From a virus (lineage: Duplodnaviria; Caudoviricetes), in IMG/VR virus record IMGVR_UViG_3300005662_000052, positions 1-56,024 of that record: a DNA stretch of 56,024 bases; one strand, written 5' to 3'. Of the stretch, positions 4,800-34,616 are shown piece by piece. The notes below the pieces were generated by a model. That model was not told where the DNA came from and ran no database searches. It saw only the letters and a program-made list of their open reading frames with translations. The translations under genes were made by a program, and so were the position numbers. Numbering within the stretch: the stretch's first letter is position 1; each line of letters opens with the position of its first letter.

Positions 4800-5015
4800 A
4801 TGCCTACCGATATTACAATAACAAATATTACCGGCTCATCTCCATATGATATATATTTGTGTGATGACCCTGTGGTTACTTGTGTTTATATTAACACTAT
4901 AACAACATTACCATATGTTTTTCAAATACCTCCAGTTTTGGACGGACAAACAAGTTATAATTTGAAAGTGGTAGATAATGACAATTGTATTAAAATAACA
5001 AATTTAACACCATGA
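4800..5015 (+). CDS. small putative virion protein, single SprB-like beta unit; paralog of 14634..14858
   Basis: ITNITGSSPYDIYLC...C...NLKVVDNDNC aligns by eye with ITSITGLTFPYDVYAC...C...NIKIVASNGC. Confidence 0.75.
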   Translation: MPTDITITNITGSSPYDIYLCDDPVVTCVYINTITTLPYVFQIPPVLDGQTSYNLKVVDNDNCIKITNLTP

Positions 5016-8000
5016 GTTGTACTTGCGTATTAGTTAGAGTTGACCAAAATGATTTAATTTCTGCCACAGGAAACACAAATCCGTTATACGATAATAAAGT
5101 TTTTTTTAGCGGTATTACGGGATGTAATAATACCTCAATATCCGTTGAATATAGTGGTAGTGGTTATTATTTTCACTGTGCTCATACGACCGGATATACT
5201 TGTAATTGTTCGGGTAGTGGTTGGGTTAAATACAACGAAACCGCTTGTATTAAATCGGCAACCACTGCAGGATACACTCCAGACCCATCGGATTTATATG
5301 AGGTAGAAGATGCGGTGTCTAACATTCAAAGTTGTCTTTATGGAACACTTTTTTTTGATTCGGGATATAGTTTATGTGGTTCAGGTGTTGCGGTGGCCTC
5401 GGTTCCTTCGGGGACTTATTGGGCGAATACAACTCTAAGTACCCTTAACGGACCTTACAATAGAGAGGCCATTTGGACTGATTTACCGGCGGATAAACCT
5501 TACGACACTTGGTTAGGTCTTTCATATTGTACTCTTACAGGAACAACCGACATGAAAACATACTATATTGGTATTGGCGCGGTTAACAATTTTAAAGTAG
5601 TTTTAGATGGTGTCGAAATTTTAGACACTACGGCCGGTCCCTGCATTACAGGAACTCAATCATTAACTACTTGGAGGGTTTACCCAATAAGTGTTGGTGT
5701 TGGTAGCCATATCATCGAGTATTACGGATATAATTATGGTAACCCAGGCGGTGTTGGGTTTGTTATTTATGATAAAGACTTATCTTCTTTAACCGCGTCA
5801 ACCACAGATGTTGCTGCCGGAGTTATTTATAATAGTAGTTCTGAAATTGGGAATAATTTTGAATTTTGTCAAGATTTATCTGGTGATTATTTAATATCAG
5901 GGTATACTTGTCCTGTTGGTTATACATATTCGGTTTGTTTAGGAACCTGTGTTAAATTTAATTATTGTGAATTAACACCTATTTTGACTGACACTCCGAG
6001 TTTATTTTATTACCAAGATAATATTTTACTTAGCGGTACCAGTATTAATAGTATATATGATGACAGAGAGTCGTTATGTTCTACATCAGGAGATTGTACA
6101 AGTAGTATTTGTACGTCAACTTCAGGATTTTGTTTGAACGATACTGGTTATGATACTTATGATGATTATTATATTGAGTCGGGTTATCATAACGGTAATC
6201 CTTATTGGTCTGGCGAAACGGATGGATTATTGATTTATTATTCCACCGGAAACACTCAATGGTGTTTATCAACAGTTTTAGATGGAGATTGTCTTTTATT
6301 TGGCAAATCACCTTGTGTTAGCGTTTGTCCTGATTTATGTGACACATATTTCTCAAACGTAATATGTCCGCCTCCAACTCCTAGTCCAACAGTTCCGTGT
6401 AGTGCGTTAAATTTTGACGCAATTTTTAATTGTAATGTTCCGTCTCCGAGTGTTACCCCCACAATGACACCAACAATTACTCCAACCCCAACTCAAAGTC
6501 CAGCAGTTTTATGTCCTAATATATTCGTTAACGCATCTATAAATAGTTATTCTCCAACCCCTACACCAACTCAAACTGTTACACCAACACCTTCAGGAGT
6601 GGTTAATAGACCTTTTGGTTTAAGTGGTGATGTTACTTTTAATACGGTTGATGAAAAAATAAAATGTCCCGTTAGTTTACAATTTCAAGATTGTATAACC
6701 GGTATGATATATAGTACTATGGATGATGTTGAAACTCCTTTGGGGGGTTCATTATCACAATATATGGTTTTTGAAGGTACTGTAAATGGGGATATTAAGT
6801 GTATGTACTATATAGGTCAAAATCAAAATATTTCAGGTATTGACCAAATTATTTTAACTAACGGACCTCTTGGATATTCTAATCTTGATGGTTGTAATAA
6901 TTGTTTTTTACCTACTCCAACCCCTACTCCAACTCCTACAATAACACCAACAATGACTTTAACTCCAACTAACACTCCAACTCCAACAATAACTCCTAGT
7001 CAAGGACTTTGTACTTGCCCTGAAGGGTACACTTTAATCGGTGATTTATGTGAACAGGTATTATTCACTTTTGCAACTCCTCCAGAAAATCCAATTATTA
7101 TAGGTAATAATTTTGAAGACTACCCAACCACATTTGGTGGTGATAGAGGTTTAATAATATATGAGGAAGTTACAAATAAAGGTTGGCCTTTGTTTGGTTT
7201 ACCTAATATACAAGGTTCAGGAATTTTTCCTAACACCTTACCAAGTACCAATAACGCAACACCTAGTAGTTTAAGTCTAATTCCGAATACAGGATATACC
7301 AATCAAGGAATCTTATACACGTCTTTATCCCCATCTTCATCTCCTGGTTCTCCTCACGCACCTTTAAATTATCCAACAGGATATTGGCCGGAAACACGAC
7401 CTTTATCTAACAATCCACCTAATTTACCAAATATTAATTTATATAGTGCACCAAATAATTTAACTTATTTAGCGGAAAGTTATGTTTCTTCAGGTGTTTT
7501 AAATTTAGGTAGTGGAAGCTCTGTTAACTTAGAATATAATAGAAGAAATGGTGTTTTTTGGGGTTTGTCATCCAATTCAAATTCTTGGCAAAATCAAGTC
7601 GGTATTTGGTCAGACGCACCTTCTCCTTATGACTCTAACCCAACGTATAGTTTATTTAACAAATGGGTTGGGGTAACTTCTTGTGTTGAAATACCAGAGA
7701 GTAAATTATATTACATCCTTATAACCGCAAATAACGCATTTAGAATAAGTGTTAATGGATTATTAATGGTGGAAATTAATGTTGGTGATGGTAATTATCA
7801 ACCTCTTGGATTTACTAATTGTTTCCCAATAACCTTATCATCAGGAACTAATACAGTTACTTTTGAAGGGGGTAACTATGGTGGTGGTGGGTTATTATCC
7901 GCAGAAATTTTAAATGTTGATACTGTAGATAATATCCTAACCGCAACAACTTATTCTCATTTAACACCATATTCAATATTTTCGACTAAAGAAAAAAGAC

Positions 8001-8359
8001 CTAGAGCTTTTGACATTAATTTTACAAGCGGTAGTACAACAATAACCTCATCAGGTCAATTTTTACCAAAGGATGTTGGGGCTTTTGTTCAATTCCCTTC
8101 CTTTGTTTTATCGGGAACTTATATTTCAAATGTTATTGATTCAAGTACCGCCATAATAACTTCAGGCGCAACCGCGACCGGATTAGGTGTTGCTGGAAAT
8201 GTGAACGGGACATCAACCGGAAGAATTTATTTTATATATGATTCGGGTACGTTATTTGCGAGTGGTTTACCACAAGGCTTTACTTGTCCAGAAGGTTATG
8301 AGTATTCTAATTGTTCGGGACCTGAATGTATTCAAGTATCTAAAATACTTTGTCCTTAA
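5012..8359 (+). CDS. large Cys-rich putative virion adhesin with two PA14/GLEYA-like beta-sandwich modules and Pro-Thr linkers
   Basis: Internal duplication (KTYYIGIGAVNNFKVVLDG..YPISVGVGSHIIEYYGYNYG vs KLYYILITANNAFRISVNG..FPITLSSGTNTVTFEGGNYG), CPxGY motifs, three PT-rich tracts. Confidence 0.7.
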   Translation: MSCTCVLVRVDQNDLISATGNTNPLYDNKVFFSGITGCNNTSISVEYSGSGYYFHCAHTTGYTCNCSGSGWVKYNETACIKSATTAGYTPDPSDLYEVEDAVSNIQSCLYGTLFFDSGYSLCGSGVAVASVPSGTYWANTTLSTLNGPYNREAIWTDLPADKPYDTWLGLSYCTLTGTTDMKTYYIGIGAVNNFKVVLDGVEILDTTAGPCITGTQSLTTWRVYPISVGVGSHIIEYYGYNYGNPGGVGFVIYDKDLSSLTASTTDVAAGVIYNSSSEIGNNFEFCQDLSGDYLISGYTCPVGYTYSVCLGTCVKFNYCELTPILTDTPSLFYYQDNILLSGTSINSIYDDRESLCSTSGDCTSSICTSTSGFCLNDTGYDTYDDYYIESGYHNGNPYWSGETDGLLIYYSTGNTQWCLSTVLDGDCLLFGKSPCVSVCPDLCDTYFSNVICPPPTPSPTVPCSALNFDAIFNCNVPSPSVTPTMTPTITPTPTQSPAVLCPNIFVNASINSYSPTPTPTQTVTPTPSGVVNRPFGLSGDVTFNTVDEKIKCPVSLQFQDCITGMIYSTMDDVETPLGGSLSQYMVFEGTVNGDIKCMYYIGQNQNISGIDQIILTNGPLGYSNLDGCNNCFLPTPTPTPTPTITPTMTLTPTNTPTPTITPSQGLCTCPEGYTLIGDLCEQVLFTFATPPENPIIIGNNFEDYPTTFGGDRGLIIYEEVTNKGWPLFGLPNIQGSGIFPNTLPSTNNATPSSLSLIPNTGYTNQGILYTSLSPSSSPGSPHAPLNYPTGYWPETRPLSNNPPNLPNINLYSAPNNLTYLAESYVSSGVLNLGSGSSVNLEYNRRNGVFWGLSSNSNSWQNQVGIWSDAPSPYDSNPTYSLFNKWVGVTSCVEIPESKLYYILITANNAFRISVNGLLMVEINVGDGNYQPLGFTNCFPITLSSGTNTVTFEGGNYGGGGLLSAEILNVDTVDNILTATTYSHLTPYSIFSTKEKRPRAFDINFTSGSTTITSSGQFLPKDVGAFVQFPSFVLSGTYISNVIDSSTAIITSGATATGLGVAGNVNGTSTGRIYFIYDSGTLFASGLPQGFTCPEGYEYSNCSGPECIQVSKILCP
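6911..7000 (+). repeat. coding Pro-Thr repeat tract (PTPTPTPTPTITPTMTLTPTNTPTPTITPS)
   Basis: Degenerate CCN-ACN hexamer repeats; further tracts near 6370-6500 and 6550-6595. Confidence 0.85.
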
Positions 8360-8361
8360 AC

Positions 8362-8392
8362 AAAAAAGTCCGTTATTAAAACGGACTTTTTT
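8362..8392. terminator. bidirectional intrinsic terminator
   Basis: Perfect 13-bp inverted repeat AAAAAAGTCCGTT-ATTAA-AACGGACTTTTTT between convergent genes, with a U-tract on both strands. Confidence 0.88.
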
Positions 8393-8394
8393 TA

Positions 8395-8994
8395 TTACCA
8401 AATTTTTTCTTGTTTCATATAACCTAAAACACAACAATAGGCATCTGATTGGTCATAGTTTTCTTTTTTGAGTGTGTTGTTTTTTGTATATAACCATTGG
8501 ATTTGAGGTTCTCTTTTCGCAACTAAATCCCAAATTATTTGTTTTTTATCACAATCTTTAGGATATCCGCCAAATAACACAAATTTACCCTTATCATTTT
8601 GTTGTACCAAATTTGGGAATGCGGTTTTTCTTGAGTTATACGTGGATATAAAATTAGGAACAATACCTAATTCATCGAATATTAATTTACATATAAAACT
8701 ATTAAATCTTAATAACGTTTGAATAGTATATACATTATTTGAATTCAATAACGGTTCTTCAATTATCACTTTTGTAATACCTAATTCTTTGTATTGAATT
8801 AATTTACTTTTAAAAATTTCACTTTTTAAAAGGAGTTCTTTCATTTTATCTTCTTCTTTTGGTTTTGGGACCGGTGAAATGTGTGTTAATTCCAATAATT
8901 GTTCTGTTTGAATGTCAAACAATGCCCACCCTATCGTTCTTGTGGATACGTCAAGCCCTAGTACTTTAGGGCTTTCTTTTAAATTTTTTTTCAT
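8395..8994 (-). CDS. ruvC: RuvC-like Holliday junction resolvase
   Basis: VLGLDVSTRTIGWA, VIIEEP, C-terminal DQSDAY. Confidence 0.85.
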   Translation of the reverse strand: MKKNLKESPKVLGLDVSTRTIGWALFDIQTEQLLELTHISPVPKPKEEDKMKELLLKSEIFKSKLIQYKELGITKVIIEEPLLNSNNVYTIQTLLRFNSFICKLIFDELGIVPNFISTYNSRKTAFPNLVQQNDKGKFVLFGGYPKDCDKKQIIWDLVAKREPQIQWLYTKNNTLKKENYDQSDAYCCVLGYMKQEKIW

Positions 8995-8995
8995 A

Positions 8996-11434
8996 TTAGA
9001 AATCGAATTTTACTAAGAACTGCTGAATACCTTGTCTTAATACGGGTGATTGCAGTTTAGATACAATCATAAGTGTTTTGTCAGAATCGTAAAGTCCAAT
9101 TTCTGTAATATATGATGGATTACCTTGTGTCCAAGTAGGGTTTGTAGTTGCTTGGAATTCAGATTCTCCTAAATTTACTTTATATCTCATTTCGTAAATC
9201 GTTGCCTGTATGTCACTCTCTAACGCCCCATAAAAATAATACTCATCACCGAAATTTAATGACACTCCACTATATCCTACAGGAGTTAACGGAACATAAT
9301 CATTTAAATCATAAGTAGGTGCGGAGTCATATTGGTCTTTTGTAATTACAAAAGTATTACCCGTTAATCCTTCTTTGGTGATATAATTATTAACTGTAGT
9401 CGCAGTAAGTTGGTCTGTAAAATCAATTATCTTCCATAAAGAAGAGTTTGGTCTTCCGTTACCTTCAACTTTTTGACAAATTATTTCAAATTTATCAGCA
9501 TAAAATCCTGTAATTTGATTACAACAAGAAAGGTCTGGTTGTGTTAAACAAGGAAACTCGTCCCCAAATCTAATAGCAATATTTTGAGATGTTAGGTTAC
9601 TACAAACAATATTAGGCCCTTCTATTACAGAATAATAATTACAATGTAATGAATTGCCTGATAAACATCCGCTTGTATTTGTAAACCTGTAAGTAACGTG
9701 CATATATTCAGTACTCGCCGTTAATACTCCTTCTGGAGAAGAACCATCTCCACCGCAAACATTTGGGGTCATTAATGATATTTTTGGTGCGGGTAATGTC
9801 CAATTTCTATTTGATTTATAAGACATCGCGGCAATTAATTCTTCATCATCAATTACCACTATTTTTTGGTCTGGAAATACTTTACCAACTCTATTAGGAT
9901 AACCGTCAATAGAATTAGGGTTAGTGTCCCATAAATGATAATATCTAATACCAGGTGAGTTCATATCCAAATTTTTATTAGATTCTATATAATGAACTTG
10001 GAATAAATTAACATTTTCAAAATTAGGTGGGTCAACCCAAAAAGTTTGTCCAAAACAACAACTTTCGTTTTTATGCCACATTATCCAAGGAATATGTAAC
10101 TTAAAGTTTCTTGCTTGACCTGTGGTGTCTCCTTCATTTGAAGGGTCAAATGGTTCGAACGCAAATTTTTCTCCGTAGAAGAAATCAATGGTTTGATTTG
10201 TATAATGTATTACCGCTATCGCCTTTTGTTCTTTAGGTGTTACCACAACTTTTTCATCAAAAGAATTATAGTAAAAAACTTCACTACTATCTGTCTGACC
10301 GCTATCTGATTGATATCCTAAATATTCTTTAGTTCCTAAGTAATTTATAGAACCAAATTTAGTATAATCTTTATTTAGAGAAGATATTAATCCCGCAGGA
10401 TTTTCAGACCAAGGAATATTCATATTCCAAACTTTAACATCAAATTGGTCTATATCACAAATCGATTCATAATTAATAACATCGTCAGCCCAATGAGGTC
10501 TTGGTGTTACACTATCATAAATTTTTGTCATATTTGATGGGTACACTAATACTCTAGAATAACAACTCGCACTTAACTCAGTAAAGTCAGGTGTTGGTCT
10601 ATCTAAGGTTATTTGATTTCCGCAAACCGAAACTATCCTATAAGTCATCATTGGATAACAACTATATATAGGAACTTTACAATCAGGGGGTGGAGGTGGT
10701 GGGCACGACCTACTAGCACTTGGTGTTAAACAAGGTGTGCTAGATGGTGTTGGTGTTGGGCTAGGGTTACAATCGTAAGGTGTTTTTGTCGGTGTTGGGG
10801 TAGGTGTTGGACTTTCAAATAATCCTGATGTAGATGTTGGTGTTGGTGTAGGTGTTGGTGTAGGCAAATTGGTACAATAACAATCGTCCAATCCTTTACC
10901 ATCATAATAAATTGTTATAAAATCTCCTACCGCAGGTTGTCTTTCTGATGGATAACCACATGGTGAGTAGATTAAATTTATTACTTTTCCACACTGAAGT
11001 GTTGACATATCAACAATATAATCTGAATTAATTACATATCGACTATCGGTTAAAGCACTCCATGTTATTGTTTCGGCAGTTAAATTACCACCAAAAAAAC
11101 CTCTCAAGGGAGCTCTATTAAACACAGGACTAACAATAGAGTCCATGTATGGAATTCCATATGTATTTCCTGTTATACCATCAACAAAATAAGGGTATTT
11201 AACATTTTGTTTATTTGAATTTGGAACTCCACTAGTATTTTGTGAATTAAAGTTGGGTTCTAATATGTTTGTGTTAAATTGATTGTATATTGACGGTGCA
11301 AGACCATAAGAAACTTCACTATCTCCAATTTGGAAATAAGAAATATTAAATTGACCTTGAGACATTTTTTGTCTTCCCGCGTCGGTTACTCTTGTGTTAA
11401 CTAAACCAGAAGTATTTTTTAAAATATATGCCAT
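8996..11434 (-). CDS. putative baseplate/tail-fibre attachment structural protein with a Pro-Thr/Cys insert
   Basis: N-terminal VTDAGRQKM..FQIGDSE and C-terminal YITEIGLYD..LMIVSKL resemble a split tail-collar/fibre-attachment domain; late motif upstream. Confidence 0.65.
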   Translation of the reverse strand: MAYILKNTSGLVNTRVTDAGRQKMSQGQFNISYFQIGDSEVSYGLAPSIYNQFNTNILEPNFNSQNTSGVPNSNKQNVKYPYFVDGITGNTYGIPYMDSIVSPVFNRAPLRGFFGGNLTAETITWSALTDSRYVINSDYIVDMSTLQCGKVINLIYSPCGYPSERQPAVGDFITIYYDGKGLDDCYCTNLPTPTPTPTPTSTSGLFESPTPTPTPTKTPYDCNPSPTPTPSSTPCLTPSASRSCPPPPPPDCKVPIYSCYPMMTYRIVSVCGNQITLDRPTPDFTELSASCYSRVLVYPSNMTKIYDSVTPRPHWADDVINYESICDIDQFDVKVWNMNIPWSENPAGLISSLNKDYTKFGSINYLGTKEYLGYQSDSGQTDSSEVFYYNSFDEKVVVTPKEQKAIAVIHYTNQTIDFFYGEKFAFEPFDPSNEGDTTGQARNFKLHIPWIMWHKNESCCFGQTFWVDPPNFENVNLFQVHYIESNKNLDMNSPGIRYYHLWDTNPNSIDGYPNRVGKVFPDQKIVVIDDEELIAAMSYKSNRNWTLPAPKISLMTPNVCGGDGSSPEGVLTASTEYMHVTYRFTNTSGCLSGNSLHCNYYSVIEGPNIVCSNLTSQNIAIRFGDEFPCLTQPDLSCCNQITGFYADKFEIICQKVEGNGRPNSSLWKIIDFTDQLTATTVNNYITKEGLTGNTFVITKDQYDSAPTYDLNDYVPLTPVGYSGVSLNFGDEYYFYGALESDIQATIYEMRYKVNLGESEFQATTNPTWTQGNPSYITEIGLYDSDKTLMIVSKLQSPVLRQGIQQFLVKFDF
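10685..10864 (-). repeat. coding Pro-Thr/Pro-Ser repeats and poly-Pro
   Basis: PTPTPTPTPTST...SPTPTPTPTKTP...PSPTPTPSSTP...SCPPPPPP. Confidence 0.85.
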
Positions 11435-11439
11435 TTATA

Positions 11440-11447
11440 TATAAATA
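11440..11447 (-). promoter_or_regulatory. TATTTATA putative late promoter
   Basis: Immediately upstream of ATG 11434. Confidence 0.6.
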
Positions 11448-11460
11448 TATCGTATTGATT

Positions 11461-12243
11461 TTATGTTATAATAATCTCACTTTCACAATTACCTGTGTAA
11501 ACCTGAACTGTAACCGGTTGTGGACTTGGTACTCCTAACACAATCCACCCTGTATTTGGTGGTGAAGATGTGTTATTATTTATAATGTATCCTCCTATAG
11601 GGGAAGGATAGATAAACCATTGATTTGTTGATGCACTCCAAAGAATTTGACTCGTACTCGCACTCCAAGATTGTTTACCATTAAAAGTTCCACTAGGGAT
11701 GTATGTTTCACTATTTACTTCATCTTGATATGTTATGTTAACACATAATGAATATCCTATACTAGCCGGTGTTTGCGTTGGGGTTGGTGTTGGGGTTGGT
11801 GTCGGCATTGTTCCTACTAACTTACAACTTGTGTATGCTGTGAAATCACCATAATAATCCACCACAACTGCGGTGTATGTACCAACAGATAAATTAGTTA
11901 TTGTATTACCAAAATTACCGTTATCCCAATTTATTGTATATGGAGATGTTCCTCCTGTTACAATTAAGGTAATTGTTCCGTCAGAAGAGGTTAATGTACT
12001 AGGTTCTATAACTTCGCAAGTCGCTCCCATTGTAAATATTGTCAAAACATTACATTCGTTAACACCCTCTTCACCACATTCTAATTTTCTTGGTGGTTTT
12101 TTTGTTGGGGTGGGTGTTGGAGTCTTTGTTGGTGTAGGTGTTGGAGTTGTTGTTAGAGTAGGTGTAATAGTCGGACTTGGTGTAGGCGTAGGTGTTTGAC
12201 TCTCTTCAGGAAGTTGTTGTATTATAATATCATTATCACCCAT
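11461..12243 (-). CDS. Pro-Thr-rich putative virion protein with one SprB-like repeat
   Basis: DGTITLIVTGGTSPYTINWDNG...ITNLSVGTYTAVVVD is a SprB-type repeat; two PT tracts; TATTTAT at 12260-12254. Confidence 0.75.
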   Translation of the reverse strand: MGDNDIIIQQLPEESQTPTPTPSPTITPTLTTTPTPTPTKTPTPTPTKKPPRKLECGEEGVNECNVLTIFTMGATCEVIEPSTLTSSDGTITLIVTGGTSPYTINWDNGNFGNTITNLSVGTYTAVVVDYYGDFTAYTSCKLVGTMPTPTPTPTPTQTPASIGYSLCVNITYQDEVNSETYIPSGTFNGKQSWSASTSQILWSASTNQWFIYPSPIGGYIINNNTSSPPNTGWIVLGVPSPQPVTVQVYTGNCESEIIIT

Positions 12244-12263
12244 AGTTATTTAAATAAATACTT

Positions 12264-13241
12264 TTATAGTTCTTTTTTAATTATTGATTTCATTATTTCA
12301 ATATATTTTATTGTTGAACTATTCTTGTCAACATAATTAAAATAATTTGGGTTTTCTTTTAATTTGTCAAAAGGGTTAACATTTATAAATTCTCCTTTAT
12401 AAAATTTGGTAGTTTTTAATCCATCTGTAACTCCAGCCATATGTAAAATAGGTTTTTTTTCATATATGAATATTGTATCGGTAGCCCAAGAAAAATCTAA
12501 ATTTTTGGTGATTAATGTTTCTTTACCTAATAACCAAATGTTCCATAAAACCGCCCACATATCTGATGTCCACATTTGTATGTGATGATTAATTGGGTAT
12601 TTTTTACTAAATGATAGTAACATTTCGTATAGTTTAATACTATCGTTAAATACTTTTTCCCAAAAAAGATAATCAGTATTTTTAATCAAATATTGAGCAC
12701 CTCCAGAATTTTTCTGATTGTTTTTAACCGTATCAGATGAGATTCCAATTATTTCACACATCTTAGTTAATAATTCACCATTTGATAGTGTGTTATGTTG
12801 AGTTTCGTATCTTTTACAACATTCTAAAATATAATCGTGTCCAATATATGATATTGTGTCTGAGACATAACAAATATCATCATTTAATAAAGAATTAAAA
12901 TCAGGTAATTCCCTAAAAACAATATCTGAATCGTGATAAAAATAACATTTACCTAATTCAGGATTATTTTTTAACCATTCTTTTAAGGCTAAAGGTCTAA
13001 GTGTTGGAATGTATTTTTTTTGATTTTTTTCTCTAGTGTCTTTAATGTGGTGAACATTAATTCCATAATCTTTTAATTTTAAAGATTCTTCAGATTCTTG
13101 GTCTCTATCTACCATAACAAATAACACATGAATTTTATCAGGTTTAATACCTTTATCGATAAAATTATTTACATATATTTTTGTTTGCCAATGAAAATAT
13201 GGTATGTCTGGTTGAGCACTTACAAATACTAAATCTTCCAT
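12264..13241 (-). CDS. GT-A fold glycosyltransferase resembling HPAT/SRGT1 (GT95/GT96-like) protein O-glycosyltransferases
   Basis: YFHWQ near N-terminus, YIPTLRPLALKEWL, DxD (YHDSDIVF), GGAQYL, WTSDMWA, ILHMAG, in the same order as motifs recalled for plant SRGT1/HPAT. Confidence 0.7.
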   Translation of the reverse strand: MEDLVFVSAQPDIPYFHWQTKIYVNNFIDKGIKPDKIHVLFVMVDRDQESEESLKLKDYGINVHHIKDTREKNQKKYIPTLRPLALKEWLKNNPELGKCYFYHDSDIVFRELPDFNSLLNDDICYVSDTISYIGHDYILECCKRYETQHNTLSNGELLTKMCEIIGISSDTVKNNQKNSGGAQYLIKNTDYLFWEKVFNDSIKLYEMLLSFSKKYPINHHIQMWTSDMWAVLWNIWLLGKETLITKNLDFSWATDTIFIYEKKPILHMAGVTDGLKTTKFYKGEFINVNPFDKLKENPNYFNYVDKNSSTIKYIEIMKSIIKKEL

Positions 13242-13483: not shown

Positions 13484-14596
13484 TTAGAATCCGTAAACCA
13501 GCTGAGTTCTACCCCAACCAGAAAAAGTTTTTAAATATATATAATCATCGTCCCAAGCAACATCTCCAACATTACCATTAGTATCTGTTGTTCCAGAAGG
13601 AGTAAATCCAACTTCCATTCTAAATTGATTATATCCAGTGTCACCAACTACGTGTAATTTTGAAGTTGGTGCCGATGTGTTAATACCCACCGACGCAAAT
13701 CCGTTTCCTAAAACAATACTACCGCTTTGTGAAACTATCGCCCCACTTCCAATCGCAGTTGCATTTGTTAAATTTCCAGATGAACAGTCCGCACCTGCTC
13801 CAATAAATGTGTTATCATCTCCACTAATATTAGCATAACCCGCATTCATTCCTAAAGCAACATTATTATTACCATTAATATTAAACGCCAATGAAAAATT
13901 GCCAACGGAAGTGTTGGAAATTCCAACTGTATTACCGGCCAATGTAGTATACCCTAAAGCAACGTTATCACTTCCTGAAGTATTACTATATAAAGAAAGT
14001 CCGCCTATCGATGTATTATATGAACCATTACTGTTAGTAAATAAGACTTTTGAACCTAACGCGGTATTAAAATCTCCATCATTTAATATTAATGATGTTG
14101 ACCCAAACGAAGTATTATCATTTCCCACCATATTACTTTTCAACGCGTTATACCCAAAAGCAGAATTATCATTTCCTATGGTATTAGACATTAAACTTTC
14201 TTTACCCATTGTGGTTAAATATTGACCTGTAGTATTCGCGGTTAAACTATCTTTACCAACTGTTGTATTCTTATCCCAATCACCCTCACCTCGACCAATT
14301 TTAACATCATTAACAACAACATCTTTAACCGTTCCAAACGTATCGGAAATACATAATTTTTTCAAACACAATCCGTCAGACTCTAATAATGTCGTACCCC
14401 CTATTGTAATGGTACTTGCGGTCATTCCACTTGAAAATGTTGAAGGTGTTGTTGATATTAATGATAGTATTTGCCCTATATTCGCTTTATATGATGAGCC
14501 CGCCGAATTCTGCGATGTATCTCCAGTTATAACAATATGAAATAAATCTTCGCCCGTTACTCCCGATGCTAATGTTCTACTTGTTAGAAATGCCAT
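13484..14596 (-). CDS. tail fibre/spike-like protein with YadA/Hep_Hag-like beta-roll repeats
   Basis: About 14-aa repeats N(T/V)(A/S)xGxx(S/A)LxxNxxGxx; VGINTSAPTSKLHVVG; C-terminal GDVAWDDDYIYLKT..GW; TATTTAT at 14616-14610. Confidence 0.75.
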   Translation of the reverse strand: MAFLTSRTLASGVTGEDLFHIVITGDTSQNSAGSSYKANIGQILSLISTTPSTFSSGMTASTITIGGTTLLESDGLCLKKLCISDTFGTVKDVVVNDVKIGRGEGDWDKNTTVGKDSLTANTTGQYLTTMGKESLMSNTIGNDNSAFGYNALKSNMVGNDNTSFGSTSLILNDGDFNTALGSKVLFTNSNGSYNTSIGGLSLYSNTSGSDNVALGYTTLAGNTVGISNTSVGNFSLAFNINGNNNVALGMNAGYANISGDDNTFIGAGADCSSGNLTNATAIGSGAIVSQSGSIVLGNGFASVGINTSAPTSKLHVVGDTGYNQFRMEVGFTPSGTTDTNGNVGDVAWDDDYIYLKTFSGWGRTQLVYGF

Positions 14597-14862: not shown

Positions 14863-17091
14863 TTACCCTTGGAATAAATAGTCGTCTCCGTTCATGAAGT
14901 TAAAGTCATCTCCATTCTGGAACTGTTTTATTTCTCCGCAACATTCGCATGATATATCATAAGTTATTAATAAATTAATTATTACATTATTATCTTCTAA
15001 TCCTGATTCACCACTACAAGATGTTGTTAAACTAACCTCGTTATTTTCTGTGTTAATTTCAACATTACCGACTTCACTATAACTCGATATGATATATTCT
15101 AATACTTCTGCCCATTCTTGGACTGTCGGGTATTCTGATAACGTATTCCCGGTAAAAAACGGTTGTGTTATTGTAACACCATTTATTGTTACTTGAGCAT
15201 AAAATATTGCCTCATTTAAAATACAATTAGTGTCACCTGATGTTAAATCGTAGAATCCTTCCAATAACATTTCTTCAGGACTTTTAACACCTGTTTCTCC
15301 CGTATTTTGAAATTCAGATTCACATATATTAAACAACTCGTAGGCCAGAACATTGTTCGCCCCATTTAATGTTGTGGTAACTGTTTTGACACACCCATCA
15401 TCTCCTGTAATTGTTAATGAGTATGTTCCGGCAGAAAGATTACTAACTGTTATTCCTGTCTGACCGTTTACGTTAGAACTCCAATTTAGAGTTAATGGTG
15501 GTATTCCGTTAGTGATTAAAGCACTTATAGAACCATTATTACCAATTGTGGGATTAACACCCGCTAAAGTAAAATCTAATGTTGATGTGGATGTAATTGT
15601 GAATGGAAATGTGTTTTGGCAAGAGTTCGCATCTGTTACAGTTGCAACATATGAACCTTCGGTTAAACTACTGAATGTATAGGCGGTTGTTGTAACTATT
15701 ACGACATCGTCTCCAATATCATAAGTGTACGGAGCCGTTCCTCCTGAGCTAATACTAACAGTTGCAAAACCATATAACTCGTTACAAGTAATTCCCGTAG
15801 TTTGTGCCGATACTGTAAATGGTATGTCATTATCCACAACGTATGTCCCATTAAATACACAAGGACTTGGTGCCGAACTACTAACAGTTAAAGTGTATGT
15901 GTCACTAGCAAGTGCGTTAAATTTAACATTTTTTGAACTCGTTACATTTTCCGTTATATCCCCGTTTGTATTGGTTAATGTATATGTGTAAGTTGATGGT
16001 GGTCCTACAAGGTTTACAGTTATTGACCCGTTACCTGTATTACAACTAGAATTACAGAAGGCATTTACCACAGAAACCGATAATACATCAAAAGATGATG
16101 GTGAGACTAAGTTAATCGACTCTTGGAAATTACATAGTCCCGCGTCTGTAACTGCAACAGTAAATAAACCACTACTTAAACCTGTAAATGTGTATACTTC
16201 TCCAAATGAAATTACGGACGCTCCGTTTGAACCCAAATAATAATATGGTGGAGTTCCTCCGTTTATTACCACGGTTACTTCCCCATTTGATTGTAAACAA
16301 GATGGTCCTTCAACTATAAAATGACTAAATTCTACAGGCGGTACTTTTTCTATGAAAGTTGTTTTACTCACAGAACACCCAACAGAATCCGTCACGGTTA
16401 AAGAATATAAACCTTCCGTTAATCCTGTTAGTGTTGTTCCAGTACTTGAGTCAGACCAAACATATGTATAAGGGGGTATTCCTGTTAATCCTGTAACATA
16501 CAAAGCCCCGTTATCTTCCGCACAACCAGCGTTATTTATTTTATAAAAATCAAAATCTAATAGTGAAACGTTTTTAATTATACACGATTCACTTTTTCCC
16601 GAACATCCACCACCATCGTCAGCAATTACGTAATAAATACCCGAATATAAATTAGTAAATTCATAAGCATCCGATAATGTATAGGCCGAGTCGATATAAC
16701 CCTCAGTTAATTCATAAAGATAAAATTTTGCTTCACCGTAAAAATTAGAAGTTTTCGCAGTTAACGAACCGTTATCATATCCACAAGTAGTGTCAACAGT
16801 ATTTATGATACTGGCACAAGTTCCATTGGAAATATAAACATTAACCGTTAATTCGTTTGGTGTTGGTAAGTTACAACTATCGGTTATAGTAAATGTATAA
16901 GTACCGGCACTTAAATTTGTTACCGTATAGTTATATGGGGTTGTTATTGGAGTGACAATATCAAAATAGGGAGACACCCAAGTTATTGAGTAATTTGGGG
17001 CACTGCCAACTATGTCTAGACTAAACGCACCAGAATTATTATTTCCACAGTCGCCCGTTACACTTAAATTATATGTTAAAAGACAAGGCAT
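14863..17091 (-). CDS. SprB-repeat putative virion/fibre protein
   Basis: About 7 repeats of C..NG...GxxPYxY...LxxGxYx(V/L)T(V/I)TDxxxC. Confidence 0.8.
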   Translation of the reverse strand: MPCLLTYNLSVTGDCGNNNSGAFSLDIVGSAPNYSITWVSPYFDIVTPITTPYNYTVTNLSAGTYTFTITDSCNLPTPNELTVNVYISNGTCASIINTVDTTCGYDNGSLTAKTSNFYGEAKFYLYELTEGYIDSAYTLSDAYEFTNLYSGIYYVIADDGGGCSGKSESCIIKNVSLLDFDFYKINNAGCAEDNGALYVTGLTGIPPYTYVWSDSSTGTTLTGLTEGLYSLTVTDSVGCSVSKTTFIEKVPPVEFSHFIVEGPSCLQSNGEVTVVINGGTPPYYYLGSNGASVISFGEVYTFTGLSSGLFTVAVTDAGLCNFQESINLVSPSSFDVLSVSVVNAFCNSSCNTGNGSITVNLVGPPSTYTYTLTNTNGDITENVTSSKNVKFNALASDTYTLTVSSSAPSPCVFNGTYVVDNDIPFTVSAQTTGITCNELYGFATVSISSGGTAPYTYDIGDDVVIVTTTAYTFSSLTEGSYVATVTDANSCQNTFPFTITSTSTLDFTLAGVNPTIGNNGSISALITNGIPPLTLNWSSNVNGQTGITVSNLSAGTYSLTITGDDGCVKTVTTTLNGANNVLAYELFNICESEFQNTGETGVKSPEEMLLEGFYDLTSGDTNCILNEAIFYAQVTINGVTITQPFFTGNTLSEYPTVQEWAEVLEYIISSYSEVGNVEINTENNEVSLTTSCSGESGLEDNNVIINLLITYDISCECCGEIKQFQNGDDFNFMNGDDYLFQG

Positions 17092-29810: not shown

Positions 29811-31649
29811 TCAAGAAAAATTAACTGTATTCATATTTTTAACCCTTACAATAATATCTTTACCGGGGAATCTAATTTGATATATCTGACTTGGTTGTGC
29901 GAATATAGTTTCATCAATTAATTCAATCTCTTTAGTTTCGTTATCTAAATATCTTTGAGATGTTTGTGATGAGGAGTATTGTCCACCAACTTTATTAAAT
30001 ATTCTAATTGACGCAACACTAATAACCCCGTTTTCACTTTGTGCTAATCTTCTTATTTCGGACACATTTACATTTTCCCCCATTTGTCTATTTCCTGGGT
30101 CAAAATATTCAGAAATAACATTAATTACCGCCGAGATTACCGCTCCTTGATTTTGACTCGAATCTAATATCAAATCGATATTAACACCTAAATCAATTAC
30201 ATTAGCGGTTTCTATTGAAATGTAGTCATTAATCATTCTATAATTAGATAAATAATTTGCGACGTTACTTTTTAATGTGGTTGATATAATTTCAGTTAGG
30301 CTGCCCGAATCGTCATAAGATAACATCTTAACTTTAATTTTATTATTTTCTTCTAAAATTGCAACTTTTGCAGGTGCTCCAAATTGTGAAGGCATTGTCC
30401 TTATTAGTGATTCATAATCATTAATAGTTACCGCCCTATTTTGTGCGGAAAAATTAAATGAAACCATATTTCTAACTTCTTCGGTTGTTGGGTTTGACGC
30501 TCCTCCAATCGCAGCAGTAACATTATTACATCTTAACGAATTAACTACACTTGTATTAGTACTACTTAGAGGTCCGTTAACAAAAAAAGAAACAGTACCT
30601 ATTTGTGTTATAACATTAACACCTAAATTACTTCCGGTTCCTCCACCAATCCTATATTGTATAAAGAGAGTACTATTAGATTTTAAAGTACTTCCTAGTG
30701 CGATATTGTTAGAATATTTATATAAATCTAATTTATAACCATTTCTCGCAAATTCTCTTAATTGTTCATCTGCGGATTGCGAACCACCCCCAAAGGTAAT
30801 TTTGCAAAAACCTTCAGGTGTAAATTCAGTAATGAATTTGTCTTGCACTGTAAGATATTTCCCAACTTTAATGCCGGGTCTATCAGAAGTTTTAGTGGGG
30901 TCTTCAACAAAGACTCTATCTTCCGCCAACGCCTTAACCTCATACCATCTATTATCTAAACCCAAAAATTCTTGTGATGTTGGTACATTAGCGTATTGTG
31001 TTCCATCTTTTAATAAAACACTTGTAATTCCTAAAACGTTTCTATCGGGTAAGAATAATTCAAAAAAGGGTTTAACATCATTTGGATTTATAACCGTTTT
31101 AAAAACTTTTGTAATACCGTTAACCACAGTTTCTCTTTTAACTATGGTGTAATTTAATAACTTATTATTAGAATCAAAATTTGGTATTTTTAACCTATTT
31201 GGAAATCCTTCCGCATTAATCGGTGATGAAAAATCAATATCATAAACAGTTTCAAACACTTGTCCAGCTCCGTTAACTTGAGCACCTCTTCTTAAAATAC
31301 CGCAATATCTTAAATCCTCTTTATCTCCATCAGCCGGAACCGTTATTGAAAAATCAACTAAAGCAACTGAGGGTCTTTGTCCGGGAACTTTTAATCCATA
31401 AGTTCTTGCAATATTATATATTGACGACCTTTGTTGTGCATATTGTAAAACGGTTTCTTGGATACTTCTATCAATATTAAATTGTAGGTTATCAGTTACC
31501 GCCGCGTTTAAATCAATTAACACTGAAAATATTGAAGCGTCGTTAAAATTTTCAACTAAGTCAGGATAGTAAGTTTTTGTGAAATTTAACAATTCGGTTC
31601 TTATCGATTGAAAATCTCTTGTTAGATATGATATTTTTTTATTAGCCAT
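29811..31649 (-). CDS. baseplate wedge protein (T4 gp6/baseplate J-like)
   Basis: RDFQSIRTEL, SIYNIARTYG, YRIGGGTGSN, AQNRAVTINDY; follows the gp25-like gene. Confidence 0.87.
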   Translation of the reverse strand: MANKKISYLTRDFQSIRTELLNFTKTYYPDLVENFNDASIFSVLIDLNAAVTDNLQFNIDRSIQETVLQYAQQRSSIYNIARTYGLKVPGQRPSVALVDFSITVPADGDKEDLRYCGILRRGAQVNGAGQVFETVYDIDFSSPINAEGFPNRLKIPNFDSNNKLLNYTIVKRETVVNGITKVFKTVINPNDVKPFFELFLPDRNVLGITSVLLKDGTQYANVPTSQEFLGLDNRWYEVKALAEDRVFVEDPTKTSDRPGIKVGKYLTVQDKFITEFTPEGFCKITFGGGSQSADEQLREFARNGYKLDLYKYSNNIALGSTLKSNSTLFIQYRIGGGTGSNLGVNVITQIGTVSFFVNGPLSSTNTSVVNSLRCNNVTAAIGGASNPTTEEVRNMVSFNFSAQNRAVTINDYESLIRTMPSQFGAPAKVAILEENNKIKVKMLSYDDSGSLTEIISTTLKSNVANYLSNYRMINDYISIETANVIDLGVNIDLILDSSQNQGAVISAVINVISEYFDPGNRQMGENVNVSEIRRLAQSENGVISVASIRIFNKVGGQYSSSQTSQRYLDNETKEIELIDETIFAQPSQIYQIRFPGKDIIVRVKNMNTVNFS

Positions 31650-31653
31650 AATT

Positions 31654-32109
31654 TTATACGTTAATAATTATAAAATCAGGGGCGTTGAACGCACTATCAG
31701 TTACTATATAGTCTATTTTGATAGTTGCGGTATGTTCCTGTTGAGAGATGTTTGATACTCTAAAAACTCTTTTGTCGTCCTCAATGTAAGTACCTTTATT
31801 TTCTTCTCCGTCAGATGCCGCCTTTATATTTATACTTGTTATTGTTATTCCCGGTATGTATTCTTCAACACTTTCTCTAATTTCAGATTCAATATCTGAA
31901 AAAGTTAAACTGTCCATGGGTTCAAATATGAATTCCAAAAGTCTAGTTCCAAAATCGGGTAAATAATATCTAGTTCCTTTTCTGGTTAATAATAAATGAA
32001 TTAAATTTGACCTAATTTCTTCATCAGCAGTATTTGATAAATCAAAATACGTGCCTGTATAAGAATCCCTAAAAGGAAAATTTATTCCATATGTTGGATT
32101 TTCTGCCAT
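31654..32109 (-). CDS. baseplate wedge protein (T4 gp25/GPW-like)
   Basis: GINFPF, IRSNLIHLLLTRKGTRYYLPDFGTRLLEFIFEP. Confidence 0.88.
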   Translation of the reverse strand: MAENPTYGINFPFRDSYTGTYFDLSNTADEEIRSNLIHLLLTRKGTRYYLPDFGTRLLEFIFEPMDSLTFSDIESEIRESVEEYIPGITITSINIKAASDGEENKGTYIEDDKRVFRVSNISQQEHTATIKIDYIVTDSAFNAPDFIIINV

Positions 32110-34615: not shown

Positions 34616-34616
34616 A

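What the first reader, a model, noticed from the sequence alone, without database searches (positions are those of the whole stretch)
5012..13241. Candidate phage-encoded virion O-glycosylation system: HPAT/SRGT1-like glycosyltransferase beside mucin/extensin-like Pro-Thr proteins
Seen: ORF 12264..13241 has YFHWQ, YIPTLRPLALKEWL, a DxD motif (DSD, about 12924-12932), GGAQYL and WTSDMWA. It lies directly upstream of, and co-directional with, two genes carrying long (Pro-Thr)n / Ser-Pro / poly-Pro tracts (11461..12243, 8996..11434). A third such gene (5012..8359) is nearby, and the long PT tracts I noticed all fall in this neighbourhood. Knowledge (from memory): plant peptidyl-serine alpha-galactosyltransferase SRGT1 (GT96) and hydroxyproline O-arabinosyltransferases (GT95) have Y(F)xWQ, YxxxN(K/R)P...WL, DxD and WxxEMY motifs in this order and glycosylate Pro-rich extensins. 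Inference: the phage O-glycosylates its own fibre/adhesin linkers, giving stiff, protease-resistant, mucin-like stalks or a glycan shield.
Basis: partly seen in the sequence, partly recalled or inferred. Interest (0 to 1): 0.9.

Follow-up and report, generated by a model that had tools for sequence, protein, structure and literature searches.

The report
Phage sugar-transferase beside threonine-rich virion proteins
A fragment of a large uncultured phage encodes an unannotated sugar-adding enzyme next to three proteins with proline-threonine tracts, and in many unrelated phages the same enzyme family travels together with threonine tags on capsid and tail proteins, so these phages probably sugar-coat their own particles, though no sugar has yet been shown.

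Summary
ORF 12264-13241 (-) encodes a soluble 325-aa protein with the quoted motifs. Two co-directional Pro-Thr-tract genes follow it and a third lies nearby; no other ORF in the window has such tracts.

The protein has no Pfam hit and belongs to phrog_4417, function unknown. Its model (pLDDT 97.8) is a GT-A glycosyltransferase with an invariant DxD and a late His. The nearest solved folds are retaining GT8, GT24 and GT6 enzymes.

It is a distant, specific relative of the Pfam HPAT family (hhalign 70-86%, controls 0.6% or less) but not a member.

My own comparisons link the family to Thr tags:
- In 27 relatives of the phiFL1A tail protein, 12 have both a poly-Thr tail and the enzyme and 15 have neither.
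- Stand-alone bacterial and prophage copies have a Thr-tagged gene directly upstream in 23 of 34 loci.
- Cultured phages 1706 and VPE25 carry the tags.

No prolyl hydroxylase occurs in three complete relatives. I read it as a cytoplasmic Thr O-glycosyltransferase for virion proteins; this is inferred, not shown.

This scan has already flagged the same family on other DNA.

The parts
12264..13241 (-). 325-aa soluble GT-A glycosyltransferase of the uncharacterised phage family phrog_4417, a distant relative of Pfam HPAT (PF23452)
   Evidence: ORF. phrog_4417 at 3e-64 and no Pfam hit. AF2 model pLDDT 97.8. Foldseek best hits are UGGT, glycogenin, XXYLT1 and GTA/GTB. hhalign to HPAT-positive proteins. 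No hydrophobic segment: maximum 19-residue Kyte-Doolittle mean is 0.75.
12924..12932 (-). DSD (D104-S105-D106), the DxD metal and nucleotide-sugar motif
   Evidence: D104 and D106 are invariant in 60 family members. They align with the invariant D96-P97-D98 of the HPAT-positive alignment.
13185..13199 (-). YFHWQ motif (aa 15-19)
   Evidence: W18 is invariant and Q19 at least 90% conserved. It aligns with YMQWQ of the HPAT-positive proteins.
12972..13013 (-). YIPTLRPLALKEWL motif (aa 77-90)
   Evidence: Y77 is invariant. It aligns with YPIYNKPASLLEWL of the HPAT-positive proteins.
12552..12572 (-). WTSDMWA motif (aa 224-230)
   Evidence: M228 is invariant; W224 and W229 are at least 90% conserved. 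It aligns with WESDMF.
12432..12449 (-). ILHMAG (aa 265-270) with invariant H267, the likely third metal ligand
   Evidence: H267 and G270 are invariant. H267 aligns with the invariant H232 of the HPAT-positive alignment. The metal-ligand role is inferred.
11461..12243 (-). 260-aa protein with two (PT)n tracts (aa 14-48 = nt 12100-12204; aa 144-161 = nt 11761-11814) and one SprB-type repeat; candidate acceptor
   Evidence: Tracts. PF13573 SprB at 3.5e-7. Weak Hoc-like PHROG hit at 0.003. The +1 gene carries a tract in 48 of 79 related loci.
8996..11434 (-). 812-aa conserved protein with a PT/SP/poly-Pro tract at aa 188-239 (nt 10718-10873); candidate acceptor; virion role not shown
   Evidence: Tracts. 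Homologues found in 66 ORFs of the related loci. Most relatives carry an extra poly-Thr tract that the window copy lacks. No Pfam family above its cut-off and no phage-record match. AF2 model unusable, pLDDT 44.
5012..8359 (+). 1115-aa Cys-rich protein with PT tracts at aa 477-528 (nt 6440-6595) and aa 632-663 (nt 6905-7000); candidate acceptor
   Evidence: Tracts. An opposite-strand tract ORF lies at +4 in 35 of 67 and at +5 in 16 of 64 related loci.
13484..14596 (-). 370-aa tail-fibre or tail-spike-like virion protein immediately upstream of the enzyme gene; no Thr tract
   Evidence: phrog_6002 virion structural protein at 6e-29 and phrog_4636 tail spike at 7e-23. No tract.
14863..17091 (-). 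742-aa SprB-repeat protein, the fibre or adhesin-like end of the baseplate-fibre module
   Evidence: PF13573 SprB at 3.3e-11 with 4 stretches.

Best explanation
ORF 12264-13241 encodes a soluble, cytoplasmic, metal-dependent GT-A glycosyltransferase. It uses a host nucleotide-sugar to put a sugar on threonine (or serine) hydroxyls in Thr-rich, disordered tracts of the phage's own structural proteins before or during assembly. In this phage the likely acceptors are the (PT)n tracts of the three neighbouring fibre-like proteins. In other phage lineages the same family serves short C-terminal poly-Thr tags on capsid and tail-tube proteins. Shown: the fold, the conserved catalytic motifs, a distant homology to HPAT-type peptide glycosyltransferases, and the genomic coupling to Thr tracts. 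Inferred: that the acceptor is protein, that Thr is the modified residue, the sugar and its linkage, and any role such as shielding, stiffening or protease resistance.
For: 1. It is a glycosyltransferase. The AF2 model has pLDDT 97.8. Foldseek against the PDB finds GT-A enzymes only: UGGT catalytic domain at E about 4e-7, glycogenin with TMt up to 0.54, XXYLT1, GTA/GTB and WbbM. D104, D106 and H267 are invariant in 60 members. Longer homologues are fused to other glycosyltransferase domains: PF11397 GlcNAc, PF10250 protein O-FucT and PF02709.
2. It is related to peptide-acting enzymes. hhalign of the family profile against PF23452-positive proteins gives 86.4% (E 4.7e-6) and 70.2% (E 4e-5) over 272 columns with five motifs in register. 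Reversed, shuffled and PF11397 controls give 0.6% or less. The language-model atlas also points to HPAT clusters.
3. It is coupled to Thr tags in independent lineages.
(a) Of 27 viral loci with close relatives of the phiFL1A major tail protein, 12 have a C-terminal poly-Thr tail and the enzyme as the next gene, and 15 have neither. There are no mixed cases, and presence occurs in at least two tail-protein sublineages.
(b) Of 80 bacterial or prophage loci, 37 hold the stand-alone form. Of the 34 with an upstream neighbour, a Thr-tract ORF sits at -1 in 16 by the strict rule and 23 by the relaxed rule. The 43 long fused forms have 1 of 41. Background is 1 of 478 ORFs (strict) and 2 of 478 (relaxed).
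(c) In cultured phages, 1706 orf10 (capsid/protease) and orf13 (major structural protein) both end in T9-10-HHD and orf14 is the enzyme. The VPE25 major tail protein ends in T10-AGK. Chryseobacterium phage MA9V-3 has a 65-residue Thr/Ser tract two genes upstream.
4. In this clade, 77 of 80 related loci have tract ORFs. These concentrate at +1 (48 of 79), +2 (49 of 73) and +4 (35 of 67), with none more than 8 kb away.
5. Three distant baseplate relatives that lack the enzyme have 0 (PT)4 and 0 T8 sites in 834 kb. The enzyme-bearing relatives have 12-13 (PT)4 sites each.
6. A complete relative has a poly-Thr/Ser insert in its tail sheath.
7. Neither the enzyme nor the tract proteins have a signal peptide or membrane segment.
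Against: No glycan has been observed for any member of this family; the evidence is entirely genomic. In this window the tracts are internal (PT)n linkers downstream of the gene. They are not the C-terminal poly-Thr tags directly upstream that give the tight coupling elsewhere, and PT runs are common flexible linkers that need no modification. The gene directly upstream here has no tract. The 80 related loci are one clade with 53-69% identity, so their synteny is not independent evidence. In complete relatives about half of the tract sites are far from the enzyme gene. Five stand-alone loci with adequate flanks have no Thr run even by the relaxed rule. The 43 long fused bacterial homologues have essentially no tract neighbours, so the family is not used only for Thr tags. 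The 812-aa and 1115-aa proteins are not shown to be virion parts: there is no family hit above cut-off, no match in phage records, and the model is unusable. The HPAT link is moderate (70-86%), and the Pfam model itself does not hit the protein.
Confidence: 0.55

Rival explanations
1. The enzyme does glycosylate phage proteins, but the (PT)n tracts of the three neighbouring genes are ordinary flexible linkers and are not its targets. The real acceptors are other Thr/Ser-rich virion proteins encoded outside this fragment, such as a tail sheath with a poly-Thr/Ser insert as seen in a complete relative.
For: The tight presence/absence coupling was found for poly-Thr tags, not for PT repeats. A complete relative has a poly-Thr/Ser insert in the tail sheath, 54 kb from the enzyme gene. 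The window is only 19% of a genome. Most relatives of the 812-aa protein carry a poly-Thr tract that the window copy lacks.
Against: Tract ORFs crowd the 6 kb downstream of the gene in 77 of 80 related loci. The three enzyme-less distant relatives have no (PT)4 sites at all. Thr is half of every PT tract.
Confidence: 0.2
2. The enzyme acts on a non-protein acceptor, such as a host envelope polysaccharide, lipid-linked glycan or small molecule, as in phage serotype conversion. The nearby Thr-rich genes are then a coincidence of the structural module.
For: Fold neighbours include the O-antigen enzyme WbbM and GT8 enzymes. The 43 long bacterial homologues are fused to other glycosyltransferase domains and lack tract neighbours. 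Complete relatives carry 7-8 GT2 hits elsewhere.
Against: The split among tail-protein relatives is perfect: 12 with both, 15 with neither, none mixed. Thr-tagged genes are strongly enriched at -1 (23 of 34) against a background of 2 of 478. The gene sits inside head and tail operons of small siphophages. The enzyme is soluble and has no membrane segment.
Confidence: 0.15
3. It works: prolines in the tracts are hydroxylated, and the enzyme arabinosylates Hyp or galactosylates Ser next to Hyp, as in extensins.
For: It shares motif order and a distant homology with the Pfam HPAT family. Poly-Pro and Ser-Pro stretches occur in the 812-aa protein.
Against: There is no PF13640 prolyl hydroxylase in 0 of 3 near-complete relatives, and the control genomes did ring. 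The tags linked to the family elsewhere contain no proline. PF23452 does not hit the protein.
Confidence: 0.03
4. It glycosylates phage DNA (base hypermodification).
For: Many large phages encode DNA glycosyltransferases (papers listed; titles and abstracts seen only).
Against: None of the top 50 PDB fold matches is a DNA glycosyltransferase. The gene lies in structural modules next to Thr-tagged proteins. I did not search systematically for hydroxymethyl-pyrimidine pathway genes.
Confidence: 0.03

Closest known systems
Mycobacteriophage virion glycosylation (Che8, Corndog, Myrna; Freeman et al. 2023, Cell Host Microbe 31:1216)
   Same: Phage-encoded glycosyltransferases modify the phage's own capsid and tail-tube proteins. 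I saw this as stated in passages of PMC12363180 and in the reference list of PMC12582341. In relatives of the present family the tags also sit on capsid-like and major tail proteins.
   Different: The paper itself is not held, so I could not compare its enzymes or acceptor sites. I did not test homology to Che8 gp110 or Corndog gp38. Here the hosts are Bacillota, Bacteroidota and others, the enzyme family is the unannotated phrog_4417, the acceptor signature is poly-Thr or (PT)n, and no glycan has been demonstrated.
Plant and algal hydroxyproline O-arabinosyltransferases (Pfam PF23452 HPAT; CAZy GT95) and peptidyl-serine alpha-galactosyltransferase SRGT1 (GT96). The CAZy numbers and the biology are recalled, not from a call.
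   Same: The order of five motifs is the same (YxxWQ; Y..(K/R)P...W; DxD; WxxDM; late His), and there is a specific profile-level similarity to PF23452-positive proteins. Both act, or are inferred to act, on disordered Pro/Ser/Thr-rich peptides.
   Different: It falls below the Pfam HPAT threshold. It is soluble rather than membrane-anchored (the plant topology is recalled). No prolyl hydroxylase is present in complete relatives. The likely acceptor is Thr, not Hyp or Ser. I compared against bacterial PF23452 proteins only, not plant sequences.
Retaining GT-A enzymes of GT8, GT24 and GT6 (glycogenin, UGGT catalytic domain, XXYLT1, blood-group GTA/GTB)
   Same: These are the best solved structural matches, and they share the DxD plus late His arrangement. 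Several of them act on proteins or protein-bound glycans.
   Different: The TM-scores are only 0.37-0.54 at 7-14% identity. There is no Pfam GT8 or GT6 hit. A retaining mechanism is an inference only.
Bacterial PF23452 (HPAT) proteins fused to a PqqD domain (PF05402)
   Same: This is the nearest sequence family with a Pfam name. The catalytic motifs align in register.
   Different: They carry a C-terminal PqqD-type domain, which I recall as a peptide-recognition element. They are bacterial, uncharacterised as far as the source names show, and share only about 18% identity in the hhalign alignment.
Chlorovirus PBCV-1 capsid glycosylation by virus-encoded glycosyltransferases (recalled, no call)
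   Same: A virus glycosylates its own capsid in the cytoplasm with its own enzymes.
   Different: That is a eukaryotic virus with different enzymes and linkages. It was not examined here.

Membership tests
GT-A fold, DxD-dependent nucleotide-sugar glycosyltransferases | Rossmann-like GT-A fold | tested here: met
   The model has pLDDT 97.8 and pTM 0.93. 205 PDB matches have E <= 0.001, and every one of the top 50 is a GT-A enzyme.
GT-A fold, DxD-dependent nucleotide-sugar glycosyltransferases | Conserved DxD motif and a C-terminal His for the metal | tested here: met
   D104, D106 and H267 are invariant in 60 sequences. Their position in the active site was not inspected in 3D.
Pfam PF23452 HPAT (GT95-type hydroxyproline O-arabinosyltransferases) | Score above the curated Pfam cut-off (23.9 bits) | tested here: not met
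   The window protein has no Pfam hit at E <= 1. A six-frame search of the window found no PF23452 match at E <= 10. Only 2 of 60 family members hit, with best E 0.09.
Pfam PF23452 HPAT (GT95-type hydroxyproline O-arabinosyltransferases) | Homology at profile level with the ordered motifs aligned | tested here: met
   hhalign gives 86.4% (E 4.7e-6) against one PF23452-positive protein, 34.9% against a second, and 70.2% (E 4e-5) against a 34-sequence alignment, over 272 columns. Controls give 0.6% or less. The support is moderate and at superfamily level.
Pfam PF23452 HPAT (GT95-type hydroxyproline O-arabinosyltransferases) | Hydroxyproline acceptor, which requires a prolyl 4-hydroxylase | tested here: not met
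   PF13640 is absent from 0 of 3 near-complete relatives, and the control genomes rang. The window itself is only 19% of a genome. Other 2OG-oxygenase families were not searched.
Pfam PF23452 HPAT (GT95-type hydroxyproline O-arabinosyltransferases) | Type II membrane anchor and secretory-pathway location (recalled for the plant enzymes) | tested here: not met
   The maximum 19-residue Kyte-Doolittle mean is 0.75, and the N-terminus runs straight into the first strand.
SRGT1 / GT96 peptidyl-serine alpha-galactosyltransferase | Sequence membership and UDP-Gal transfer to Ser | not tested
No GT96 sequence or model was available from any tool.
Phage virion glycosylation systems (mycobacteriophage type) | Phage-encoded glycosyltransferase in or beside the structural genes | tested here: met
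   In the window the gene sits at the end of the baseplate-fibre module. In phiFL1A it lies between the major tail protein and the tail chaperones. In 1706 it follows the major structural protein.
Phage virion glycosylation systems (mycobacteriophage type) | Acceptor tags on capsid and tail-tube proteins | tested here: inconclusive
   Candidate tags are present on those proteins in relatives. In this window the tracts are internal PT linkers of fibre-like proteins whose virion role is unproven.
Phage virion glycosylation systems (mycobacteriophage type) | Glycan demonstrated on virion proteins | not testable with these tools
   This needs mass spectrometry or glycan staining of virions.
Phage virion glycosylation systems (mycobacteriophage type) | Homology to the mycobacteriophage enzymes (Che8 gp110, Corndog gp38) | not tested
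   I did not fetch those sequences, and the paper is not held.

The most novel reading that the evidence does not exclude
A single HPAT-superfamily enzyme and a portable poly-Thr or (PT)n tag form a mobile two-part cassette. Tailed phages of many bacterial phyla swap it in and out to sugar-coat whichever particle protein carries the tag: capsid, tail tube, sheath or fibres. That would make Thr-tag O-glycosylation a widespread and so far unrecognised feature of phage particles, including laboratory and therapy-relevant Enterococcus, Staphylococcus, Lactococcus and Lactobacillus phages.
Probability: 0.45. Interest if true: 0.8.

Novelty: new variant of a known kind. Interest (0 to 1): 0.6.

Why it matters
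Glycosylation of phage particles is experimentally established only for mycobacteriophages, where it is reported to shield virions from antibodies (passages of PMC12363180). If this unannotated family does the same job, particle glycosylation extends to phages of Bacillota, Bacteroidota and other phyla. That includes well-studied phages such as VPE25, phiFL1 and 1706. It would bear on phage immunogenicity, stability, adsorption and the interpretation of cryo-EM and proteomic data. It would also provide a compact enzyme-plus-tag pair for engineering glycans onto proteins in the bacterial cytoplasm. Cultured carriers exist, so the hypothesis can be tested directly. My eight literature searches found no paper describing this family or poly-Thr tags as phage glycosylation sites. 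Most subscription-journal papers, and all supplements, were not searchable.

Tried and rejected
Sequence search of the PDB. The single protein gave nothing. The family profile gave only TALE-repeat hits built from many tiny repeated matches, which I judge spurious.

Direct Pfam HPAT tests on the window were negative. Only the bridge through PF23452-positive bacterial proteins gave a signal.

Structure of the 812-aa neighbour. The AF2 model built from 24 homologues had mean pLDDT 44, so I ran no fold search on it. A profile search of the PDB hit only through the PT tract. tblastn against phage records found nothing. Its virion role stays unproven.

Enzyme-less members of this phage's own clade. 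The baseplate marker returned 80 close relatives at 81-100% identity, mostly short fragments, which were useless for a presence/absence test. I fell back on three distant, complete, enzyme-less relatives. That is a small and distant sample.

The promoter and terminator scan was uninformative: 34 promoter-like sites against 38 expected.

'Relatives' cannot be drawn for a virus record.

I considered DNA glycosylation and host polysaccharide modification; see the rival explanations. I did not use complex prediction (the tool's own text says an enzyme with its substrate is rarely worth a job), the look-up of sequencing runs or read laying.

Supplementary files of papers were not consulted. The Freeman et al. 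2023 paper is not held, so details of its acceptor sites and enzymes are unknown to me.

Full report
What is there. The window is an entire IMG/VR viral record of 56,024 bases that CheckV rates 19% complete. That implies a genome of about 295 kb by my arithmetic. Three near-complete relatives are 274-318 kb. The minus-strand genes 12264-13241, 11461-12243, 8996-11434 and 8395-8994 are separated by 20, 26 and 1 nt, which suggests co-transcription (read directly from the sequence). Upstream lie:
- a tail-fibre or tail-spike-like gene at 13484-14596 (phrog_6002 and phrog_4636);
- a SprB-repeat protein at 14863-17091;
- a run of large unknown proteins;
- gp6-like and gp25-like baseplate genes at 29811-32109.

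The candidate enzyme therefore sits at the distal end of a baseplate-fibre module. The DNA pattern for (PT)4 occurs 7 times, all in those ORFs, against 0 in 100 shuffles.

What the 325-aa protein is. It has no Pfam match at E <= 1 and no PDB match by sequence. It matches phrog_4417, 'unknown function', at 3e-64. The family is large:
- 1675 proteins at E <= 0.001 in the word-indexed search;
- 820 cluster representatives in the exhaustive search;
- 77 phage records, almost all annotated 'hypothetical protein'.

An alignment of 60 members (A1) has invariant W18, Y77, D104, D106, Y132, G181, M228, F250, H267, G270 and Y313. The AlphaFold2 model is very confident, with pLDDT 97.8 and pTM 0.93. Foldseek against the PDB returns only GT-A glycosyltransferases. 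The best are the UGGT catalytic domain (GT24), WbbM, glycogenin and XXYLT1 (GT8) and GTA/GTB (GT6), with TM-scores of 0.37-0.54 at 7-14% identity. In the viral structure library the only close matches are two uncharacterised family members. Longer homologues are fused to other glycosyltransferase domains: PF11397 'GlcNAc', PF10250 protein O-fucosyltransferase, PF02709, and F5/8-type-C lectin-like domains. The protein has no hydrophobic segment. I conclude that it is a soluble, DxD-dependent GT-A glycosyltransferase of an unnamed family.

The HPAT/SRGT1 claim. The Pfam HPAT model (PF23452) does not hit the window protein. It reaches only 2 of 60 family members, with best E 0.09. The language-model atlas nevertheless placed HPAT-bearing clusters among the nearest named neighbours; 19 of the 30 hits in the named-cluster search fall in the HPAT set, which is a lead only.

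To test this, I searched five bacterial genomes that carry the family for PF23452. Two proteins scored above the curated cut-off of 23.9 bits, at 34.6 and 30.6 bits. hhalign of A1 against them gave 86.4% (E 4.7e-6, 272 columns) and 34.9%. I then collected their family. Nearly all members carry precomputed PF23452, and most also carry PF05402 PqqD. I aligned 34 of the 120 listed as A2. A1 against A2 gave 70.2%, E 4e-5, over 272 columns. The motifs align in register:
- YxxWQ with YMQWQ;
- YiPSIRP with YPIYNKP;
- DSD with DPD;
- W(T/A)(S/A)DMW with WESDMF;
- H267 with H232.

Controls gave 0.6% or less: A2 reversed, five column shuffles, and a three-sequence PF11397 alignment. It is not a member by Pfam's criterion. 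I could not compare it with plant sequences or with GT96.

Is it linked to Thr-rich proteins? I ran four tests.

1. Own clade. I fetched 80 IMG/VR loci at 53-69% identity. Of these, 77 have at least one tract ORF. The three without (L040, L068, L078) have under 0.7 kb of sequence downstream of the gene (at most 645 bases by my arithmetic). Tract ORFs occupy +1 in 48 of 79, +2 in 49 of 73, +4 in 35 of 67 and -1 in 18 of 76. There are none at 7 or more genes away on either side, and none more than 8 kb away. This shows conserved synteny within one clade, not independent association.

2. An independent lineage with gains and losses. In Enterococcus phage phiFL1A the homologue (gp51) lies directly after the major tail protein gp50. 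That protein ends in a tail of about 25 residues made almost entirely of Thr and Ser. Among 27 viral loci encoding close relatives of that tail protein, 12 have a C-terminal poly-Thr tail and the enzyme as the next gene, and 15 have neither. There are no mixed cases, and presence occurs in both the 83-100% and the 66-67% identity groups. By my arithmetic the exact probability of that split is about 6e-8, but the loci are related, so this overstates the evidence.

3. Bacterial genomes and prophages. I fetched 80 loci from Bacteroidota, Bacillota, Actinomycetota and others. The 37 stand-alone forms of 400 aa or less behave differently from the 43 long fused forms.
- Stand-alone forms: a tract ORF somewhere in the locus in 21 of 37. 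Of the 34 with an upstream neighbour, a tract ORF at -1 in 16 by the strict rule and 23 when runs of at least 5 Thr/Ser are counted.
- Fused forms: 1 of 43 loci, and 1 of 41 at -1.
- Background in the fused-form loci: 1 of 478 ORFs (strict) and 2 of 478 (relaxed).

The tags are C-terminal on proteins of about 200 aa at -1 (the size of a major tail protein) and of about 390-400 aa at -6 (the size of a capsid protein).

4. Cultured phages.
- Lactococcus phage 1706: orf10 (capsid/protease) and orf13 (major structural protein) both end in T9-10-HHD, and orf14 is the homologue.
- Enterococcus phage VPE25: the major tail protein ends in a T10 run.
- Chryseobacterium phage MA9V-3, the closest cultured relative at 42% identity, has a 65-residue Thr/Ser tract two genes upstream of the homologue.

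Results that go the other way:
- Five stand-alone loci with good flanks have no Thr run at all.
- In Lactobacillus phage Lpa804 the homologue is not among annotated structural genes, and I did not scan that genome for tags.
- In a complete relative only 4 of 11 tract ORFs are near the enzyme gene.

Genome-wide view in relatives. The enzyme is single-copy in three near-complete relatives. None has a PF13640 prolyl hydroxylase. Each has 7-8 PF00535 GT2 matches elsewhere, and two have an NAD-dependent epimerase, so further glycan-building capacity exists in this phage group. The window itself has no GT2 match. One relative's tail sheath carries a 33-residue poly-Thr/Ser insert. Three distant baseplate relatives lack the family: Flavobacterium phage immuto, an uncultured 484-kb phage and a Microcystis phage. 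Together they have no (PT)4 or T8 coding sites in 834 kb.

Mechanism. The most economical reading has four parts. It is a cytoplasmic enzyme. It uses a host nucleotide-sugar. It O-glycosylates Thr (perhaps also Ser) in disordered Thr-rich tracts of virion proteins. Recognition depends on the tract rather than on a folded domain, because tags on unrelated proteins (capsid, tail tube, fibres, sheath) accompany the same enzyme. Thr rather than Pro or Hyp is the likely target, because the tags in other lineages contain no proline and no hydroxylase is present. The closest solved folds are retaining enzymes, so an alpha-linkage is plausible but unproven. Whether the GT2 enzymes elsewhere in related genomes extend the sugar is unknown. 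The biological role (shielding, solubility, stiffness or protease resistance) is speculation.

Novelty and prior notes. Published phage virion glycosylation, as far as I could see it, concerns mycobacteriophages (passages in PMC12363180; reference in PMC12582341). The primary paper is not held. Eight full-text searches found nothing on this family or on poly-Thr tags as phage glycosylation sites. Earlier notes of this same scan describe the same family and the same poly-Thr link on other genomes. My reading was formed before I saw them, and my tests were run independently. For the scan, this window is therefore a further instance, not a first sighting. I class it as a new variant of a known kind: virion glycosylation by a different enzyme family with a distinct tag.

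Confidence is 0.55 that the enzyme glycosylates Thr-rich tracts of this phage's virion proteins, including the neighbouring PT proteins. It is higher (about 0.7) for the broader claim that the stand-alone family glycosylates Thr-tagged phage proteins.

Noticed in passing
L209:1006-2139 (-) and proteins P0272-P0391: Bacterial proteins with a Pfam HPAT domain (PF23452) are mostly fused to a PqqD domain (PF05402), which I recall as the peptide-recognition element of RiPP pathways. Sources name them only 'PqqD family protein'. They may be peptide O-glycosyltransferases of RiPP-like pathways.
   Followed up: partly
L136 and L210 (same contig of a Candidatus Microthrix MAG): A PF23452-positive gene lies about 4 kb from a 1012-aa fused form of the family. 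I ran Pfam on the similar 1013-aa form in L130, which carries a PF11397 GlcNAc domain, but not on this one. This suggests a multi-enzyme glycosylation cluster in a bacterial chromosome.
   Followed up: no
G001 (L099:15741-19127, -): The tail sheath of a complete relative (1128 aa, phrog_23 at 2.5e-55 over aa 836-1126) has a long N-terminal extension that carries a 33-residue poly-Thr/Ser tract.
   Followed up: partly
G001-G003, whole records: Near-complete relatives carry 7-8 GT2 (PF00535) matches each, and two carry an NAD-dependent epimerase. Some GT2 genes lie within about 10 kb of other PT-tract genes (for example G001 at 17-19 kb against tract ORFs at 7.6-10.4 kb).
   Followed up: partly
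window 14863-17091 (-) and 11461-12243 (-): SprB-type repeats (PF13573), typical of Bacteroidota gliding adhesins, occur in two phage structural proteins. The nearest cultured baseplate relative is a Flavobacterium phage at 27.6% identity. Together these hint at a Bacteroidota host.
   Followed up: partly
window 8395-8994 (-): A RuvC-like Holliday-junction resolvase gene (phrog_159 at 3e-7) is wedged between the PT-tract genes, 1 nt after the 812-aa ORF.
   Followed up: no
window 32192-35564 (-) and 48009-48335 (-): Ribonucleotide reductase, helicase, exonuclease, recombinase and SSB genes separate two sets of baseplate-like genes (gp6/gp25-like at 29.8-32.1 kb and a wedge-like gene at 48.0-48.3 kb), so the structural genes are split by a replication block.
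   Followed up: no
alignment A3 (homologues of window 8996-11434): Most relatives of the 812-aa protein have a second tract, of poly-Thr, about two-thirds of the way along the protein. The window copy lacks it.
   Followed up: no
window 11873-12199 (+): A 108-aa ORF rich in Gly-Val repeats is the reverse-strand shadow of the PT-coding tracts and is not a gene.
   Followed up: yes
IMG/VR collection: This phage clade is very abundant in metagenomes.
   Followed up: no
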